Shown here one piece after another: positions 8,255-13,842 of a DNA stretch of 64,000 nucleotides (positions are counted from its first letter, which is position 1; the number at the start of each line of letters is the position of its first letter). Origin of the DNA: a plasmid; the NCBI RefSeq assembly GCF_055900595.2, contig NZ_JBVWEU010000003.1; one strand, given 5' to 3'. The notes beneath the pieces were generated by a model that had not been told where the DNA came from, searched no databases, and worked only from the letters and a program-made list of their open reading frames with translations. The translations under genes were made by a program, and so were the position numbers.

Positions 8255-8413
8255 ATGACGATTGCAGAACGTCTTATTCAAAAAGGCGCTCTTGAAGTGG
8301 CGCGGGAAATAGCCTGCCGGCTTCGGGATATGGGCTGGACGCCGGAACGGATTCAGGAGGCAACCGGACTTTCCGGTGAAGAACTGAAAAAACTGTTTCC
8401 TGATGAGCTGTAG
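8255..8413 (+). CDS. Free-standing Rpn C-terminal-domain-like small protein (RpnS-like)
   Basis: 52 aa (MTIAERLIQKGALEVAREIACRLRDMGWTPERIQEATGLSGEELKKLF) resembling the C-terminal tail of the upstream Rpn protein (AERLKQEG...IARQLQKTGMSFAQICQITGLSEAELKKI). Confidence 0.4.
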   Translation: MTIAERLIQKGALEVAREIACRLRDMGWTPERIQEATGLSGEELKKLFPDEL

Positions 8414-8443
8414 CCTGGCATTCTGCCAGGCTGTGAATCACGC

Positions 8444-8695
8444 TCACACATCCTCTGCCGTTTCCCCCAGTTCATTTTCCAGTCGCCTGATGATATCTGC
8501 CTTACGCATCCCCTGCATGTGAGGCAGCAGGTCACGGACTGAAAGAGCCTGGGTGGTCCTCCAGACGGTGACGTCCACCTGTTCCGCATTTTCCCAGGCG
8601 TGCCATGTTCTCTGCGTCACGCCAAATTCTCTGGCCGCTTTTTCGCGTGACCAGAGCATGCTTTTTCGCCAGATTCGCAGTTCCCAGCCGGTCAT
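8444..8695 (-). CDS. Small HTH DNA-binding protein (Cro/XRE-like), opposite strand to the leading-region genes
   Basis: 83 aa; LWSREKAAREFGVTQRTWHAWE helix-turn-helix-like segment; ATG at 8695-8693. Confidence 0.55.
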   Translation of the reverse strand: MTGWELRIWRKSMLWSREKAAREFGVTQRTWHAWENAEQVDVTVWRTTQALSVRDLLPHMQGMRKADIIRRLENELGETAEDV

Positions 8696-8710
8696 AAAAC
8701 ACCTTTGAAA

Positions 8711-8796
8711 AAGTGAAAAAACTTCACTTTATTTTATCATCATAATCATCAAATCAGCGCGATAAATAAGTGTGAAAAAGTGAAGAAATTTCACTT
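8711..8796. promoter_or_regulatory. Two identical palindromic operator-like sites AAGTGAA-N5-TTCACTT (8711-8729 and 8778-8796)
   Basis: Perfect 7-bp inverted half-sites with 5-bp spacers, twice, in an AT-rich stretch just upstream of the - strand HTH gene start. Confidence 0.55.
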
Positions 8797-8894
8797 TTTT
8801 TTGATTGTGGGTGTCGTGCTGTTTTCTCTGTTTTCACCTGTGCGGGAGTGGTGCGCCAGTGACCACAGCATGCCGTTGTTGTGCCGTCGGTTTT

Positions 8895-9255
8895 CTCCGG
8901 TCGCGCCGGATGCGGCGCTCCCTGCACACCTGACGGTGTGTAAGGCCACTGCGCCTGATGGCGCAGCTGTCTCTGCCTGTCTGCCGCCGCACTGCGGCCC
9001 GTTCTCCGCAGACGGACTTTCCGGGGGTACATACACGACCACATCCCGTTTCAGTCGTCCAGGGGAGAGATGTACCAGCCACAAAACTTTTTGCCGCAGG
9101 CGTCAAAAACTTTTGCGTCTGCCCCCGGACAACTGCCCCGTGACGTGGTGAGCGTCCCCCGTCGGAAAGGTCCACTGCGGGGAAATCCCCGAAGACCCGG
9201 ACGGCAGAAGGAGCTTCGCTCCTCCGGGAAATGACCTGGCTGACCCGGCAGTCGT
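8895..9255 (+). promoter_or_regulatory. ssi/Frpo-like single-strand promoter element (repeat copy C, oriT-proximal)
   Basis: Shares long near-identical blocks with 6025-6400 (for example GCGCTCCCTGCACACCTGACGGTGTGTAAGGCCACTGCGCCTGATGGCGCAG and CAGCCACAAAACTTTTTGCCGCAGGCGTCAAAAACTTTTGCGTCTGCCCCCGGACAACTGCCCCGTG). Confidence 0.6.
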
Positions 9256-9275
9256 GACGATGAGGAGACAATGTG

Positions 9276-10124
9276 ATGAATCAGACTTTACCCACTGCTG
9301 ACCTGAATACTGCCGGCACGACAGATGTTATTCCGTCTGTGGCTATCGACCGCATCATCGCGCAGCGTAACGAAGGTATTACACTGTTCATGCAGGCGAT
9401 GGAATGCCTGGCGACAGCGCGCAGGATTCTGCTCGATGCGTCAGGTGATATTTTTCTTTACGGGTTTGAAGACTGCGTGACTGATTCCGTTCGTCGCATG
9501 GATAAACCGGAAGAAGCGAAAAGGAATATCACCCGTCTTGCCGACCGGAAAATCTGGGACCGCCTGATGACAGATACGGGCATGTACACCTTCATGAGTT
9601 CATGCCAGCGTGATGAGTGGAACAGCCAGCTGATGAGCGACACCTGTCCTGAAATCACCCTGGACAATGTACTGGCAACATTCCGCCATCTGAATGCCAG
9701 CAAAATGCAGACATTTGAACAGGGACTGATTGATGTCTACCGGAAATTGTCATGGGATTACAGAACCAATAATCCCTGCCGTCTGGGCAAGAAAATCATT
9801 ATTGAAAACCTGCTGTACCGCTGGAGTAACGGGCGTGTGACGCTGGACTGCAGCGGACGGGAGGCACTGGATGACCTGGTACGTCCGTTTTATCTGCTGG
9901 AGGGGCGCAACGTTCCTGACTTCCGGAGCAGCATCGGGGCGCAGTATTGTGAATTTCTCGGGAACGGCGACAATATCGGTGAGTTGTTTGAAGGGGAATA
10001 TTTTACGGTGCGTGGCTACCAGAAAGGAACCGTACACATTGTCTTTAAGCGTTCTGACCTTGTTGAAAAACTGAATGATATTATTGCACGGCATTATCCT
10101 GGTGCATTGCCGCCACGAGTCTGA
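9276..10124 (+). CDS. Hypothetical protein, first gene downstream of the oriT-proximal ssi element
   Basis: 282 aa from ATG 9276 with GAGGAG RBS; no motif recognised with certainty; followed by a terminator. Confidence 0.6.
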   Translation: MNQTLPTADLNTAGTTDVIPSVAIDRIIAQRNEGITLFMQAMECLATARRILLDASGDIFLYGFEDCVTDSVRRMDKPEEAKRNITRLADRKIWDRLMTDTGMYTFMSSCQRDEWNSQLMSDTCPEITLDNVLATFRHLNASKMQTFEQGLIDVYRKLSWDYRTNNPCRLGKKIIIENLLYRWSNGRVTLDCSGREALDDLVRPFYLLEGRNVPDFRSSIGAQYCEFLGNGDNIGELFEGEYFTVRGYQKGTVHIVFKRSDLVEKLNDIIARHYPGALPPRV

Positions 10125-10132
10125 TTAAACAG

Positions 10133-10170
10133 AAAAGCCCTGGTATTTATGCCGGGGCTTTTTTTTCTGT
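10133..10170 (+). terminator. Probable rho-independent terminator
   Basis: Imperfect GC stem (AGCCCTGG...CCGGGGCT) followed by an 8-T run. Confidence 0.5.
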
Positions 10171-10209
10171 AATCATCATAATCTCAGAACACGATGTGAC
10201 ATTGTCACA

Positions 10210-10545
10210 TCAATTGTTGTTCATATCGATGCCATCTTTCCTGCCTGAATCTGTCTTTTTAGGTGCTGTTTTAGAGGAAGAACGGCGGGATGGTTTTTTC
10301 GATTCTGCTTCCCGAATAATGTCACGAAGTGCCTTCTCTCCTACTTCATACCCTGCATTTTTGAGCGTGTCACGAACATCTGCAAGTGTATAACCCTTTG
10401 TCCTTACCAGGACAATGATGTCATCACGAATGGCATCAAGAAAATCACGCAATGTTTTCCGTTGAGCGGTGAGGTCCGGCAATTCCGATAAGGCAGATTT
10501 TGCCAGCTGGATGTCATCATCTGAGTAAAATTTTTTAGAAGCCAT
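10210..10545 (-). CDS. Hypothetical small protein adjacent to oriT, divergent from nikA
   Basis: About 111 aa from ATG 10545 with GGAGAG RBS; charged and helical, Lys/Ser-rich basic C-terminal tail. Confidence 0.5.
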   Translation of the reverse strand: MASKKFYSDDDIQLAKSALSELPDLTAQRKTLRDFLDAIRDDIIVLVRTKGYTLADVRDTLKNAGYEVGEKALRDIIREAESKKPSRRSSSKTAPKKTDSGRKDGIDMNNN

Positions 10546-10599
10546 TGGCACTGTCTCTCCGTTTCATGTTGAAGCCTGATTTTATCATCAAAAACTGAC

Positions 10600-10777
10600 T
10601 CCTGGCAGGGCTGCGCCCTGCCTCTGCCGTCTGCATAAGACTATGATGCACAAAAATAACAGGCTATAATTGCATGAAAAACGGGACAGGATGTGGGAAT
10701 GTCGGACCGCGCACGCGCACTCAGACATTCCCCACCTGGTCAGGGCTTTGCCCCGACACCCCGGTAAGGAGCAGACC
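10600..10777 (-). other. oriT: Origin of transfer, R64-like; predicted nick in the - strand between + coordinates 10687 and 10686
   Basis: The - strand reads ...GGGGTGTCGGGGCAAAGCCCTGACCAGGTGGGGAATGTCTGAGTGCGCGTGCGCGGTCCGACATTCCCACATCCTGTCCCG...; inverted repeat GGGAATGTC/GACATTCCC (10695-10703 and 10724-10732) beside an ATCCTG motif; immediately upstream of nikA. Confidence 0.7.
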
Positions 10778-11110
10778 ATGAGTGAGAAGAAAACCCGAAC
10801 GGGCAGTGAGAACAGGAAGAGAATTGTAAAATTCACGGCGAGATTCACGGAGGATGAGGCTGAAATCGTAAGAGAAAAAGCGGAGTCAAGTGGACAGACG
10901 GTTTCAACATTTATACGAAGCTCTTCACTGGATAAGGTGGTTAACTGCCGTACTGACGACCGTATGATTGATGAGATTATGCGTCTTGGCCGCCTTCAGA
11001 AGCATCTGTTTGTGGAGGGAAAACGCACTGGTGATAAGGAGTATGCAGAGGTTCTTGTTGCCATTACTGAATATGTCAATGCTCTGCGAAGAGACTTAAT
11101 GGGACGCTGA
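10778..11110 (+). CDS. nikA: Relaxosome accessory protein NikA (ribbon-helix-helix)
   Basis: 110 aa from ATG 10778 with AAGGAG RBS; small basic RHH-like protein directly upstream of the relaxase. Confidence 0.85.
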   Translation: MSEKKTRTGSENRKRIVKFTARFTEDEAEIVREKAESSGQTVSTFIRSSSLDKVVNCRTDDRMIDEIMRLGRLQKHLFVEGKRTGDKEYAEVLVAITEYVNALRRDLMGR

Positions 11111-11121
11111 GATAACTGCTG

Positions 11122-13842
11122 ATGAATGCCATTATTCCGCACAAAAGACGTGACGGCAGGTCTTCCTTTGAAGACCTGATTGCGTACACGTCTGTGCGGG
11201 ATGATGTGCAGGAAAATGAGCTCACAGAAGACAGCGAAATCAAGAGTGATGTCCCTCACCGCAACCGTTTCAGACGGCTTGTTGATTATGCAACACGCCT
11301 GCGTAACGAAAAATTTGTCTCCCTGATTGATGTGATGAAAGACGGCAGTCAGTGGGTAAATTTCTATGGCGTAACCTGTTTCCATAACTGCAATTCACTG
11401 GAAACAGCTGCTGAAGAGATGCAGTACAAGGCGGACAAAGCTGTTTTTTCCCGTAATGATACAGACCCCGTTTTCCACTACATTCTTTCCTGGCCTGCGC
11501 ATGAAAGCCCGCGTCCTGAGCAGCTTTTTGACTGTGTGCGTCACACACTGAAATCTCTTGAACTCTCAAAACATCAGTACGTGGCTGCCGTTCATACGGA
11601 CACGGATAATCTGCATGTGCATGTTGCCGTGAATCGTGTACATCCTGAAACTGGTTATATTAACTGGCTTTCCTGGAGCCAGGAAAAACTCAGTCGTGCA
11701 TGCCGTGAACTTGAACTTAAGCACGGATTTGCGCCGGATAATGGCTGCTTTGTGCATGCACCCGGCAACCGTATTGTGCGCAAAACAGCGCTGGTACGTG
11801 AGCGCCGTAATGCCTGGCGACGCGGGAAAAAGCAGACGTTCAGGGAATATATTGCGCAGATGTCGATTGCCGGGCTGCGTGAAGAGCCCGCACAGGACTG
11901 GTTATCTTTGCATAAACGGCTGGCCAGTGATGGTCTGTATATCACGATGCAGGAAGGGGAACTGGTGGTGAAGGATGGCTGGGACAGAGCGCGGGAAGGT
12001 GTTGCACTCAGTTCGTTCGGACCGTCATGGACAGCTGAAAAACTGGGGCGGAAACTGGGGGAATATCAGCCTGTACCGACAGATATTTTCAGTCAGGTGG
12101 GGACACCCGGTCGTTATGATCCGGAAGCCATAAACGTGGATATCCGGCCGGAAAAAGTGGCAGAAACGGAGAGTCTGAAACAGTACGCCTGTCGTCACTT
12201 TGCTGAACGCTTACCGGAAATGGCGCGAAATGGTGAACTGAAAAGTTGCCTGGCTGTACACCGTACTCTGGCAGAGGCGGGATTATGGATGGGGATTCAG
12301 CACGGGCATCTGGTACTGCATGATGGATTTGATAAACAACAGACACCAGTACGTGCAGACAGTGTGTGGCCGTTAATGACGCTGGATTATATGCAGGATC
12401 TGGATGGTGGATGGCACTCTGTACCGAAGGATATTTTTACTCAGGTTATACCCGAAGAACGATTCCGGGGACACAGTATTGGCACTCAGGCTGTCAGCGA
12501 TTACGAATGGTATCGCATGAGGATGGGCACTGGTCCACAGGGTGCCATAAAGCGTGAACTGTTTTCCGATAAGGAAAGTCTGTGGGGATACGCTCTTATT
12601 CAGTGCAGGAGCCAGATTGAAGAGATGATAGCTGGCGGGGATTTCAGCTGGCAGGCATGTCATGAGATGTTTGCGCGTAAAGGGCTTATGCTGCAGAAAC
12701 AGCATCATGGTCTCGTGATTGTGGATGCGTTTAATCATGAACTGACACCGGTGAAGGCCAGCAGTATCCACCCGGATTTGACGTTATCCCGGGCCGAGCC
12801 TCAGGCCGGGCCATTTGAAATTGCGGCTGCAGATATTTTCGAACGGGTGAAGCCTGAATGTCGCTACAATCCGGAACTTGCTGCCAGTGATGAAGTGGAG
12901 CCCGGCTTCCGGCGCGATCCTGAGCTGCGTCGTGAGCGCCGTGAAGCCCGTGCAGCTGCGCGGGAAGATTTGCGTGCGCGTTATCTTGCATGGAAGGAAC
13001 ACTGGCGTAAACCCGATTTACGTTACGGCGAACGGTTGCGGGAAATTCATGCTGCCTGCCGTCGTCGCAAGGCTCATATCCGCGTGCAGTTCCGGGATCC
13101 ACAATTGCGTAAACTGCATTACCATATTGCAGAAGTGCAACGTATGCAGGCGCTGATCAGACTGAAGGAAAATGTCAGGGAAGAGCGACTGGCGCTGATG
13201 GCGGAGGGTAAGTGGTATCCGTTGTCCTACCGGCAGTGGGTGGAACAACAGGCGGCGCAAGGCGACAGAGCTGCAGTGTCACAGCTCCGAGGCTGGGATT
13301 ATCGCGATCGTCGCTCGCGTAATAAGGATAAAAGACGCACAACTAATGCTGATCGTTGTGTCGTTCTCTGCGAACCCGGAGGAACGCCACTTTTTAATAA
13401 TGTTGCAAAACTTGAAGCTCGTCTTCAGAAAAATGGAAGTGTTCATTTCAGGGATACGCGGACAGGAAAAAATGTCTGTACGGATTACGGAGATCGGGTT
13501 GTGTTCTACCATCACACGGACCGAAATGAACTGGCAGAGAAGCTTGATTTAATTGCGCCAGTTCTGTTCAGCCGCAACGGAAAGCTTGGTTTTGAGCCGG
13601 AAGGTTCATACCAGCAGTTTAATGATGTGTTTGCAGAAATGGTGGCCTGGCACAATGCAGCGGGAATAACCGGAAACGGACACTTCACCATTACTCGTCC
13701 GGACGTGGATTTGCACCGTCAACGCAGTGAGCAGTATTACCGGGAATATATCAGACAGCAGACCCGTTTATCGGAGAGCCATGATGATAATTATACGTTA
13801 CGGCAGGAGAAAACATGGGAGCCACCATCACCTGGAATGTAA
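11122..13842 (+). CDS. nikB: MOBP-family relaxase NikB
   Basis: 906 aa; His-rich relaxase motif HTDTDNLHVHVAVNRVHPETG; size and position match R64 NikB. Confidence 0.9.
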   Translation: MNAIIPHKRRDGRSSFEDLIAYTSVRDDVQENELTEDSEIKSDVPHRNRFRRLVDYATRLRNEKFVSLIDVMKDGSQWVNFYGVTCFHNCNSLETAAEEMQYKADKAVFSRNDTDPVFHYILSWPAHESPRPEQLFDCVRHTLKSLELSKHQYVAAVHTDTDNLHVHVAVNRVHPETGYINWLSWSQEKLSRACRELELKHGFAPDNGCFVHAPGNRIVRKTALVRERRNAWRRGKKQTFREYIAQMSIAGLREEPAQDWLSLHKRLASDGLYITMQEGELVVKDGWDRAREGVALSSFGPSWTAEKLGRKLGEYQPVPTDIFSQVGTPGRYDPEAINVDIRPEKVAETESLKQYACRHFAERLPEMARNGELKSCLAVHRTLAEAGLWMGIQHGHLVLHDGFDKQQTPVRADSVWPLMTLDYMQDLDGGWHSVPKDIFTQVIPEERFRGHSIGTQAVSDYEWYRMRMGTGPQGAIKRELFSDKESLWGYALIQCRSQIEEMIAGGDFSWQACHEMFARKGLMLQKQHHGLVIVDAFNHELTPVKASSIHPDLTLSRAEPQAGPFEIAAADIFERVKPECRYNPELAASDEVEPGFRRDPELRRERREARAAAREDLRARYLAWKEHWRKPDLRYGERLREIHAACRRRKAHIRVQFRDPQLRKLHYHIAEVQRMQALIRLKENVREERLALMAEGKWYPLSYRQWVEQQAAQGDRAAVSQLRGWDYRDRRSRNKDKRRTTNADRCVVLCEPGGTPLFNNVAKLEARLQKNGSVHFRDTRTGKNVCTDYGDRVVFYHHTDRNELAEKLDLIAPVLFSRNGKLGFEPEGSYQQFNDVFAEMVAWHNAAGITGNGHFTITRPDVDLHRQRSEQYYREYIRQQTRLSESHDDNYTLRQEKTWEPPSPGM

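What the first reader, a model, noticed from the sequence alone, without database searches (positions are those of the whole stretch)
10210..10777. Divergent small gene immediately on the leading side of oriT
A - strand gene of about 111 aa lies between oriT and the first ssi-driven gene. Because of its strand it cannot be expressed from the transferred single strand, so it is more likely a donor-side oriT-proximal DNA-binding or accessory factor. Its basic Lys/Ser-rich C-terminal tail is compatible with DNA binding.
Basis: inference. Interest (0 to 1): 0.38.

Follow-up and report, generated by a model that had tools for sequence, protein, structure and literature searches.

The report
Small regulator gene beside transfer origin
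This is yggA, a small, widely conserved gene of I-complex resistance plasmids that sits next to the origin of transfer; it most likely encodes a DNA-binding repressor that holds down the neighbouring relaxase genes, and it is not a factor needed for transfer.

Summary
A 111-aa gene lies on the - strand at 10210-10545, 232 nt from and divergent to nikA-nikB, on the leading side of oriT. The window is an IncK2/Z-type I-complex plasmid. The gene is yggA in R64 nomenclature (Hp23 in pESBL). Public records often mislabel it [quoted passage not shown].

YggA is 36% identical to pCTX-M3 Orf35. Deleting orf35 raises nikA/nikB/traH transcripts 23-80-fold and mobilisation about 100-fold, yet orf35 is dispensable for self-transfer. 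Transposon screens of pESBL and pMS7163B also find yggA dispensable.

The strand argument holds: the nicked strand is the - strand, which is yggA's sense strand.

Best reading: a repressor of the relaxase promoter, expressed only from double-stranded DNA. "Nicking or transfer accessory factor" is not. Ordinary, modest interest.

The parts
10210..10545 (-). yggA coding sequence, 111 aa from the ATG (an alternative GTG at 10551 would give 113 aa). Residues 1-82 form a four-helix helix-turn-helix domain; residues 83-111 form a disordered Lys/Arg/Ser-rich tail.
   Evidence: ORF. Annotated as yggA, hypothetical, or 'MobC'. Homologues. AlphaFold model, pLDDT about 90 over residues 1-80.
10556..10560 (-). 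Likely ribosome-binding site GGAGA, 10 nt upstream of the ATG.
   Evidence: Read directly from the sequence; inference.
10579..10587 (-). Putative yggA promoter: extended -10 element TGaTAAAAT. The tool's -35 candidate is CTGCCA at 10608-10603. The transcription start is expected near 10572.
   Evidence: Promoter scan. A TGnTAnnAT element is kept at the aligned position in 5 of 6 diverged lineages. No start-site mapping was done.
10604..10622 (.). GC-rich palindrome P1 (GGCAGGGC-TGC-GCCCTGCC), overlapping the -35 zone of the yggA promoter. It is followed by an invariant TGCCGTC at 10625-10631. It is either a candidate operator or a DNA hairpin.
   Evidence: 97.9% of cells are paired, and 2 of 8 pairs change on both sides. 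It matches the 8-bp inverted repeat of oriT at 16 of 19 positions.
10632..10650 (.). Palindrome P2 (TGCAT-N9-ATGCA) over the expected -35 zone of the nikA promoter. It is a weaker candidate operator. On the - strand it contains GTGCATCAT, 8 of 9 to the R388 stbDR consensus.
   Evidence: Sequence. A different palindrome (TCGCC-ACTA-GGCGA) sits at the same aligned place in the Enterobacter and Citrobacter lineages, but the site is not palindromic in every lineage. stbDR consensus from PMC3098194.
10665..10670 (+). Putative nikA promoter -10 hexamer, TATAAT. Transcription from it would run across the nick site.
   Evidence: Kept in all six aligned lineages, with one base changed in one of them. 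The promoter scan did not call it because the -35 is weak. Inference.
10682..10694 (-). Nick region. The - strand reads ACATCCTG|TCCCG, so the predicted nick is between 10687 and 10686 on the - strand.
   Evidence: The motif is conserved in most of the MPF_I/MOBP lineages compared, with small base changes in pCTX-M3, pWEC-2 and Serratia and a more altered form in Pseudomonas. It resembles the RP4 nick sequence ATCCTG|C (established knowledge). The pESBL oriT annotation maps to about 10681-10763. The nick was not mapped here.
10695..10732 (.). 18-bp inverted repeat of oriT, the counterpart of the R64 17-bp repeat. Its sequence differs between the IncK2-type and the R64-type oriT, but the pairing is kept.
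   Evidence: 8 of 18 pairs change on both sides across lineages.
10739..10757 (.). Conserved 8-bp inverted repeat of oriT, GTCAGGGC-TTT-GCCCCGAC.
   Evidence: The arms are invariant across the aligned lineages.
10778..13842 (+). Relaxase operon: nikA (10778-11110, ribbon-helix-helix accessory protein) and nikB (11122-13842, MOBP relaxase). This operon is the proposed target of YggA repression.
   Evidence: Pfam NikA-like, Relaxase and TraI_middle; NCBIfam MobA and TraI_MobP_relax.
10133..10162 (.). Hairpin flanked by T-runs on both strands. It is a likely bidirectional terminator between the convergent ygfB and yggA genes.
   Evidence: Inverted repeat I4 and the sequence. Inference.

Best explanation
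yggA encodes a small helix-turn-helix DNA-binding protein with a basic, disordered tail. It is made from its own sigma-70 promoter, of the extended -10 type. This promoter sits back-to-back with the nikA promoter in the roughly 140 bp between the yggA start codon and the nick site.

Proposed mechanism:
- YggA binds in this interval. Candidate sites are palindrome P1 (10604-10622) and palindrome P2 (10632-10650).
- Binding lowers transcription of the relaxase operon nikAB. This keeps relaxosome supply low in established hosts and limits mobilisation of other oriT-bearing replicons.
- The transferred strand is the sense strand of yggA, so the gene is silent while the plasmid is single-stranded in a new cell. 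It switches on only after the complementary strand has been made.
- It is not needed for nicking or for self-transfer.

In evolutionary terms it looks like a cut-down relative of the StbA-type proteins encoded next to oriT in other plasmids. Only the N-terminal DNA-binding domain is kept.

Shown here: the gene, its conservation, its fixed position and orientation, the predicted fold, and the oriT polarity. Taken from papers: the repression phenotype of the 36%-identical homologue and the neutral transposon phenotypes. Inferred: DNA binding by this protein, the binding sites, both promoters, and repression of nikAB in this plasmid.
For: Identity:
- 97% identical to an annotated yggA, and listed as 'Protein YggA' (Hp23) in pESBL.

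Homologue with experimental data:
- 36% identity to pCTX-M3 Orf35 over 92 aa, E = 3e-13.
- Deleting orf35 raises nikA, nikB and traH transcripts about 40-, 23- and 80-fold and mobilisation about 100-fold, without changing self-transfer (PMC6112013 and PMC8125031).

Fold:
- Four helices plus a disordered tail; mean pLDDT 81.7.
- hhalign against the StbA family: probability 85%, E = 6e-6, 81 columns.
- The family profile hits the sigma-54 promoter-binding domain at E = 2e-4 and StbA at E = 0.047.

Synteny:
- The order is [leading genes pointing toward oriT][yggA pointing away][oriT][nikA, nikB]. It is kept in IncL/M, Serratia, Pseudomonas, Klebsiella, Enterobacter, Citrobacter and E. coli plasmids.

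Cis elements:
- Both -10 elements and palindrome P1 are conserved between the divergent genes.
- The yggA-to-nick block is about 99% identical between the IncK2-type and the R64-type plasmids. The adjacent 18-bp repeat and nikA differ. So the putative sites travel with yggA and not with nikA.

Tail: basic in 39 of 51 homologues.
Against: - No DNA binding or regulation has been shown for YggA of any I-complex plasmid. The functional data come from a 36%-identical IncM protein.
- In pCTX-M3, nikAB heads the whole tra operon. Here nikAB stands alone.
- Complementation of orf35 was only partial.
- The pESBL and pMS7163B screens did not flag yggA as a repressor of transfer. This fits a mild or mobilisation-specific role but does not prove one.
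- Foldseek against the PDB gave no significant match (best E about 1; StbA ranked 34 with TMt 0.60).
- The hhalign probability is below 95%.
- Neither candidate operator is established. The covariation at P1 could equally reflect a DNA hairpin unrelated to YggA, and P2 is not palindromic in all lineages.
Confidence: 0.55

Rival explanations
1. YggA is a non-essential architectural component of the relaxosome, in the manner of RP4 TraK. It would bind and wrap the DNA between the nick site and its own gene to tune nicking or strand unwinding. The transcript changes seen in the homologue's mutant would then be a secondary effect.
For: Its position is the same as that of TraK and StbA, between the nick site and the first leader gene. 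TraK is reported to bind exactly that interval (PMC3098194). The protein has a helix-turn-helix domain and a basic tail suited to extended DNA contact. Palindrome P1 resembles the 8-bp inverted repeat of oriT.
Against: The gene is dispensable in three plasmids, and loss of the homologue increases mobilisation. The published pESBL oriT annotation (83 bp) excludes the region next to yggA. A TraK-family protein shows no profile similarity to the YggA family (probability 1.4%).
Confidence: 0.15
2. YggA is a functional StbA equivalent. It would act as a centromere-like DNA-binding adaptor that positions plasmid copies and also regulates several leading-region promoters, balancing vertical stability against transfer.
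For: There is remote homology to the StbA DNA-binding domain and the genomic position is the same. Deleting stbA raises R388 conjugation 50-fold (PMC3098194), which resembles the orf35 phenotype. A single stbDR-like 8-mer, TGCATCAT, lies at 10644-10651 on the - strand, and pWEC-2 has an exact TTGCATCAT at the aligned place.
Against: There are no arrays of direct repeats near yggA or anywhere else in the window. The StbA C-terminal domain is missing and no stbB gene is adjacent. The pMS7163B screen named only the replicon and parAB as needed for maintenance. pESBL gives P(essential) = 0.00 for yggA.
Confidence: 0.12
3. YggA acts mainly in the new host as an establishment or anti-defence factor, like many other genes of the leading region.
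For: It is the first gene to enter the recipient. Leading regions are rich in anti-defence genes (PMC11541004, listed; the paper was not read here).
Against: Its orientation excludes expression from single-strand promoters, unlike its neighbours. It has no match in PADLOC or PHROGs. The fold is a plain helix-turn-helix. In every lineage examined it is the only leading-side gene pointing away from oriT.
Confidence: 0.06

Closest known systems
YggA of IncI1 plasmids R64 and pESBL-EA11 (Hp23), and pMS7163B_00750
   Same: It is the same gene: 97-100% identical, 336 nt, divergent from nikA across a 232-233 nt spacer.
   Different: Nothing material differs in the gene itself. Here it sits next to an IncK2-type 18-bp oriT repeat and nikA allele, where R64 has its own type. 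The function is uncharacterised in all of these plasmids; only neutral transposon phenotypes are known.
[quoted passage not shown]
   Same: It is a homologue (36% identity, E = 3e-13). It is also the first leading-region gene, divergent from nikA, of similar size, with a basic tail. It is the experimentally supported negative regulator of nikA, nikB and traH.
   Different: In pCTX-M3, nikAB is fused to the tra operon, so Orf35 controls the whole transfer apparatus. In this window, nikAB is a separate two-gene operon. The intergenic sequences are not alignable outside the oriT core.
StbA of the IncW plasmid R388 (N-terminal DNA-binding domain, PDB 7PC1)
   Different: StbA has 141 aa with a conserved C-terminal domain. 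It works with StbB and binds arrays of 9-bp direct repeats. YggA lacks all three. The plasmids also differ in type: MOBF/MPF_T for R388 against MOBP/MPF_I here.
TraK of RP4 and MobC of pTF-FC2 (leader-operon proteins grouped with StbA by PSI-BLAST in PMC3098194)
   Same: They occupy the same position, and TraK binds the DNA between the nick site and its own gene.
   Different: No sequence relationship was detected here between the YggA profile and a TraK-family protein.
Ribbon-helix-helix relaxosome accessory proteins (NikA, ColE1 MbeC/MobC, F TraY)
   Same: They are small proteins that bind DNA near oriT, and they share the gene symbol 'MobC'.
   Different: The fold is different. YggA is all-helical, with no N-terminal strand and no ribbon-helix-helix profile match. 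The ribbon-helix-helix protein of this locus is NikA.

Membership tests
YggA/Orf35 family (oriT-adjacent small proteins of MPF_I/MOBP plasmids) | Sequence homology to R64/pESBL YggA and to pCTX-M3 Orf35 | tested here: met
   97-100% identity to annotated yggA. 36% identity and E = 3e-13 to Orf35. 76 cluster representatives at E <= 1e-3 in the library of 1.84 billion representative proteins.
YggA/Orf35 family (oriT-adjacent small proteins of MPF_I/MOBP plasmids) | First gene on the leading side of oriT, divergent from nikA-nikB | tested here: met
   Seen in the window and in 11 other loci.
YggA/Orf35 family (oriT-adjacent small proteins of MPF_I/MOBP plasmids) | Negative regulation of the relaxase/tra operon while being dispensable for self-transfer | not testable with these tools
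   Repression is published only for pCTX-M3 Orf35. Dispensability is published for pESBL and pMS7163B.
StbA family (R388-type) | N-terminal helix-turn-helix DNA-binding domain homologous to StbA residues 1-75 | tested here: inconclusive
StbA family (R388-type) | Conserved StbA C-terminal domain | tested here: not met
   YggA ends in a 29-residue disordered basic tail. The alignment to the StbA family stops at StbA residue 82.
StbA family (R388-type) | Operon partner StbB (a ParA/Soj-like ATPase) immediately downstream | tested here: not met
   The downstream neighbour is the convergent DUF4942 gene. In all sampled loci yggA is a single-gene unit.
StbA family (R388-type) | Arrays of 9-bp direct repeats (stbDR, C/TTGCATCAT, 11-bp period) upstream of the gene | tested here: not met
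   No tandem or direct-repeat arrays. Only a single 8-of-9 match at 10643-10651, and no clusters elsewhere in the window.
Ribbon-helix-helix relaxosome accessory proteins (NikA, MbeC, TraY) | N-terminal beta-strand followed by two helices; ribbon-helix-helix profile match | tested here: not met
   The model is all-helical and has no ribbon-helix-helix hit. NikA in the same window does match.
Molybdopterin-guanine dinucleotide biosynthesis proteins (the name given in many public records) | Homology to a molybdenum-cofactor biosynthesis family | tested here: not met
   There is no such Pfam or NCBIfam match, even at E <= 1. The name appears to be a wrong expansion of the symbol 'MobC'.

The most novel reading that the evidence does not exclude
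YggA/Orf35 is a stand-alone, StbB-less offshoot of the StbA-type oriT-adjacent DNA-binding proteins, and it acts as a timer. It cannot be made from the incoming single strand and is absent from a fresh transconjugant. The relaxase promoter would therefore fire unrepressed for a short period after second-strand synthesis, favouring immediate onward transfer, until YggA builds up. In steady state the same repression would limit exploitation of the relaxase by the many small plasmids that carry only an I-type oriT. The covarying hairpin P1, a look-alike of the 8-bp oriT repeat, would be part of this control point.
Probability: 0.15. Interest if true: 0.5.

Novelty: new member of a known kind. Interest (0 to 1): 0.3.

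Why it matters
I-complex and IncL/M plasmids are major carriers of ESBL, AmpC and OXA-48 genes. If YggA represses the relaxase operon as its IncM homologue does, it helps set how readily these plasmids mobilise co-resident oriT-bearing replicons. Removing it is a proven way to build hyper-mobilising donor strains (PMC7440800). The tentative link to the StbA DNA-binding domain would give a protein family a structural basis for regulation; its students had reported it as having no known DNA-binding motif. It would also extend the 'DNA-binding protein encoded next to oriT, divergent from the relaxase' theme to MPF_I plasmids. In practical terms, thousands of public records carry a wrong metabolic name for this protein.

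Tried and rejected
Searches that found nothing useful:
- Pfam, NCBIfam, PHROGs and PADLOC gave no family for the protein.
- A single-sequence search of the PDB gave nothing.
- Foldseek against the PDB gave no significant hit.
- The afdb50 library was not available.
- Rfam found nothing above threshold in 8400-11200.

Hypotheses tested and not supported:
- A TraK-family protein does not match the YggA profile. R721 YciA matches only weakly (probability 21%).
- A StbA-like binding mode was looked for and not found. There are no tandem or direct repeat arrays. stbDR-like motifs are not clustered in the window (56 observed against 41 expected).
- A shared GGCAG/CTGCC motif and palindromes upstream of the yggA-like promoters were examined by eye in more distant loci (IncM, Serratia, Pseudomonas, Klebsiella). 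No consistent operator emerged.
- Palindrome P2 is not palindromic in all lineages.

Leads that turned out to be something else:
- Gene '950' of pMS7163B, which had a polar conjugation phenotype, is not yggA. It lies next to M.EcoGIX. The yggA orthologue is pMS7163B_00750.

Sources that could not be reached:
- The R64 oriT paper (PMC207772) and the R388 record BR000038 are not held.
- RK2 BN000925 is not in the collection.
- No supplement is held for the pESBL early-transcriptome paper, so yggA expression after mating could not be read.

Full report
**What is there.**

The window around the finding is the oriT region of an I-complex plasmid.
- A 2-kb query (9200-11200) is 99.9% identical to many E. 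coli and Salmonella plasmids. One fetched record is typed IncK2/Z, MOBP, MPF_I.
- The + strand carries nikA (10778-11110; Pfam NikA-like, NCBIfam MobA) and nikB (11122-13842; MOBP relaxase).
- The - strand carries an ORF at 10210-10551. Public annotation and the N-termini of homologues place the start at the ATG at 10545, giving 111 aa.
- Downstream of the gene, and convergent with it, lies ygfB (DUF4942, 9276-10124). A hairpin with T-runs on both strands (10133-10162) lies between them and looks like a bidirectional terminator.

**The gene is real and has a name.**

- It is called yggA in R64 nomenclature, as in the annotation of plasmid pN537 (97% identical).
- It is 'Protein YggA' (Hp23) in pESBL-EA11 (PMC4288162).
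- tblastn finds it in 3,557 plasmid records, and one 90%-identity cluster holds 2,695 sequences.
- An exhaustive HMMER search of 1.84 billion representative proteins finds only 76 cluster representatives at E <= 1e-3. The family is small.
- Many records call it 'molybdopterin-guanine dinucleotide biosynthesis protein MobC'. No Pfam or NCBIfam model supports that name. It appears to be a wrong expansion of the symbol MobC.

**Synteny.**

In every locus examined the yggA-like gene is a single-gene unit divergent from a nikA-like and relaxase gene pair.
- The loci are IncI-gamma/K1, IncL/M (a pOXA-48-like plasmid and pCTX-M3), and plasmids of Serratia, Pseudomonas amygdali, Klebsiella, Enterobacter, Citrobacter and E. 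coli.
- The spacer to the nikA-like gene is a few hundred bp in every case.
- The next leading-side genes point the other way, toward oriT.

**Polarity of transfer.**

- The spacer contains the I-type oriT core. Read on the - strand it runs: an 8-bp inverted repeat (10757-10739), an 18-bp inverted repeat (10732-10695), then ACATCCTG|TCCCG (10694-10682).
- The 18-bp repeat corresponds to the R64 17-bp repeat (my recollection of the R64 literature; the sequence of the R64-type plasmid pN537 matches it).
- The last motif is conserved, with small base changes in some lineages, in most of those compared. It resembles the RP4 nick sequence (established knowledge).
- The oriT annotated in pESBL maps to about 10681-10763.
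- Nearly all annotated leading-side genes, including the antirestriction gene, are on the + strand.
- The transferred strand is therefore the - strand, with its 5' end predicted at 10686 and running toward lower coordinates. That strand is the sense strand of yggA, so it cannot serve as its template.
- Upstream of ygfB the transferred strand folds into a long hairpin far more stable than shuffled sequence (z = -8.6). This fits an ssi/Frpo-type single-strand promoter of the kind mapped in pESBL (PMC12672017).

**The protein.**

- An alignment of 51 homologues (A1) shows a conserved core of about 80 residues, with an LPDL motif and a KGY motif. It is followed by a tail that varies in sequence but is basic in composition.
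- The AlphaFold model built on A1 has four helices (9-20, 32-48, 54-63, 70-82), with pLDDT around 90, and a disordered tail.
- The A1 profile hits the promoter-binding helix-turn-helix of sigma-54 at E = 2e-4 and StbA at E = 0.047.
- hhalign of A1 against a 27-member StbA alignment gives 85% probability, E = 6e-6, over 81 columns covering the whole N-terminal domain.
- Foldseek does not reach significance, although StbA has the best target-normalised TM-score, 0.60.
- I read this as probable but unproven remote homology to the StbA N-terminal domain.
- The other StbA hallmarks are absent: no C-terminal domain, no StbB partner, and no direct-repeat arrays.
- R388 stbA occupies the same place as yggA. 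It is the first leading-side gene, divergent from the relaxase operon, and its deletion raises conjugation 50-fold (PMC3098194).

**Functional evidence from papers.**

- pCTX-M3 Orf35 was reported as 32% identical to R64 YggA. I find 36% identity to the window protein, E = 3e-13.
- Orf35 is dispensable for self-transfer. Its deletion raises nikA, nikB and traH transcripts about 40-, 23- and 80-fold and mobilisation of an oriT plasmid about 100-fold. The authors noted no known DNA-binding motif (PMC6112013, PMC8125031, PMC7440800).
- In pESBL the transposon screen scores yggA as non-essential for maintenance and for transfer (0.99 / 0.00 / 0.01).
- In pMS7163B the orthologue (00750, 336 nt, same 232-nt spacer) has a log2 fold change of +0.47 after conjugation.
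- The refutation condition 'no transfer phenotype' is thus partly met for self-transfer. A regulatory phenotype does exist in the homologue.

**Cis elements between yggA and the nick site.**

An alignment of six lineages whose YggA proteins are 55-100% identical shows four features.
1. An extended -10 element for yggA (TGaTAAAAT, 10587-10579) is kept in five of the six lineages.
2. A TATAAT at 10665-10670 is kept in all six (one base changed in one lineage). It lies 16 nt from the nick site and is a likely nikA promoter that would transcribe across the nick.
3. A GC-rich palindrome, P1 (10604-10622), has 97.9% of cells paired and two pairs that change on both sides. An invariant TGCCGTC follows it.
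4. A second palindromic site, P2 (10632-10650), lies over the expected -35 zone of the nikA promoter. The Enterobacter and Citrobacter lineages have a different palindrome at the same place, but not all lineages have a palindrome there.

The block from yggA to the nick region is about 99% identical between this plasmid and the R64-type plasmid pN537. The 18-bp repeat and nikA differ. These elements therefore travel with yggA and not with nikA. P1 also resembles the 8-bp oriT repeat (16 of 19 positions). I cannot decide whether P1 is an operator or a DNA hairpin.

**Conclusion.**

The finding is a correct description of a known but functionally uncharacterised backbone gene.
- The most likely role is a helix-turn-helix repressor of the divergent relaxase promoter, expressed only from double-stranded DNA. 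I give this a confidence of 0.55.
- A role as a required nicking or transfer accessory factor is not supported.
- The new element in this analysis is the tentative assignment of the YggA/Orf35 family to the StbA-like DNA-binding fold, together with the map of the conserved promoters and palindromes.
- Interest is modest.

Noticed in passing
window 10604-10631: A GC-rich 8-bp-arm palindrome (GGCAGGGC-TGC-GCCCTGCC) followed by an invariant TGCCGTC. Its arms covary across lineages (G:C to T:A at two positions) while the 3-nt centre varies. It matches the 8-bp oriT inverted repeat (10739-10757) at 16 of 19 positions. No predicted promoter transcribes it, so it acts at the DNA level, either as an operator or as a hairpin on the transferred strand about 65-83 nt from the nick.
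   Followed up: partly
window 10193-10211: A perfect 19-bp palindrome, GATGTGACATTGTCACATC, overlaps the yggA stop codon. Its core, GTGACATTGTCAC, is kept in pWEC-2 even though the flanking sequence has diverged, and it is absent in the Enterobacter lineage. Its function is unknown.
   Followed up: partly
window 10695-10800 compared with L002 (pN537): There is a module boundary inside oriT. The sequence is about 99% identical to an R64-type plasmid up to 10694. After that, the 18-bp inverted repeat and nikA switch to a different allele. The repeat keeps its pairing through many two-sided changes (8 of 18 pairs across lineages). This looks like a swap of the NikA specificity determinant by recombination at the nick region.
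   Followed up: partly
window 8700-9275, - strand: The transferred strand upstream of ygfB folds into a long imperfect hairpin (-134.9 kcal/mol, z = -8.6 against shuffles). This fits an ssi/Frpo-type single-strand promoter.
   Followed up: partly
window 8708-8730 and 8777-8799: Two copies of a small A/T-flanked palindrome (AAAGTGAAnnnnnTTCACTTT) lie between the small - strand helix-turn-helix gene (ygeA-like, 8444-8695) and the hairpin region. Each forms its own hairpin in the fold.
   Followed up: no
window 10678-10763; hits H140-H155: Many very small plasmids (1.5-5 kb) of E. coli, Klebsiella, Serratia and Salmonella carry only the oriT-core part of this spacer, at about 75-96% identity. They presumably depend on I-complex relaxases for mobilisation.
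   Followed up: no
L005, L006, L008, L009 (yggA-like genes): The annotated start codons of several homologues lie 10-42 codons upstream of the start supported by the family alignment, which has a good ribosome-binding site. The same applies to the 528-579-nt 'mobA' annotations of IncL/M nikA.
   Followed up: partly
window 10210-10545 and public records: The product name 'molybdopterin-guanine dinucleotide biosynthesis protein MobC' is attached to this protein in thousands of records, with no supporting homology.
   Followed up: yes
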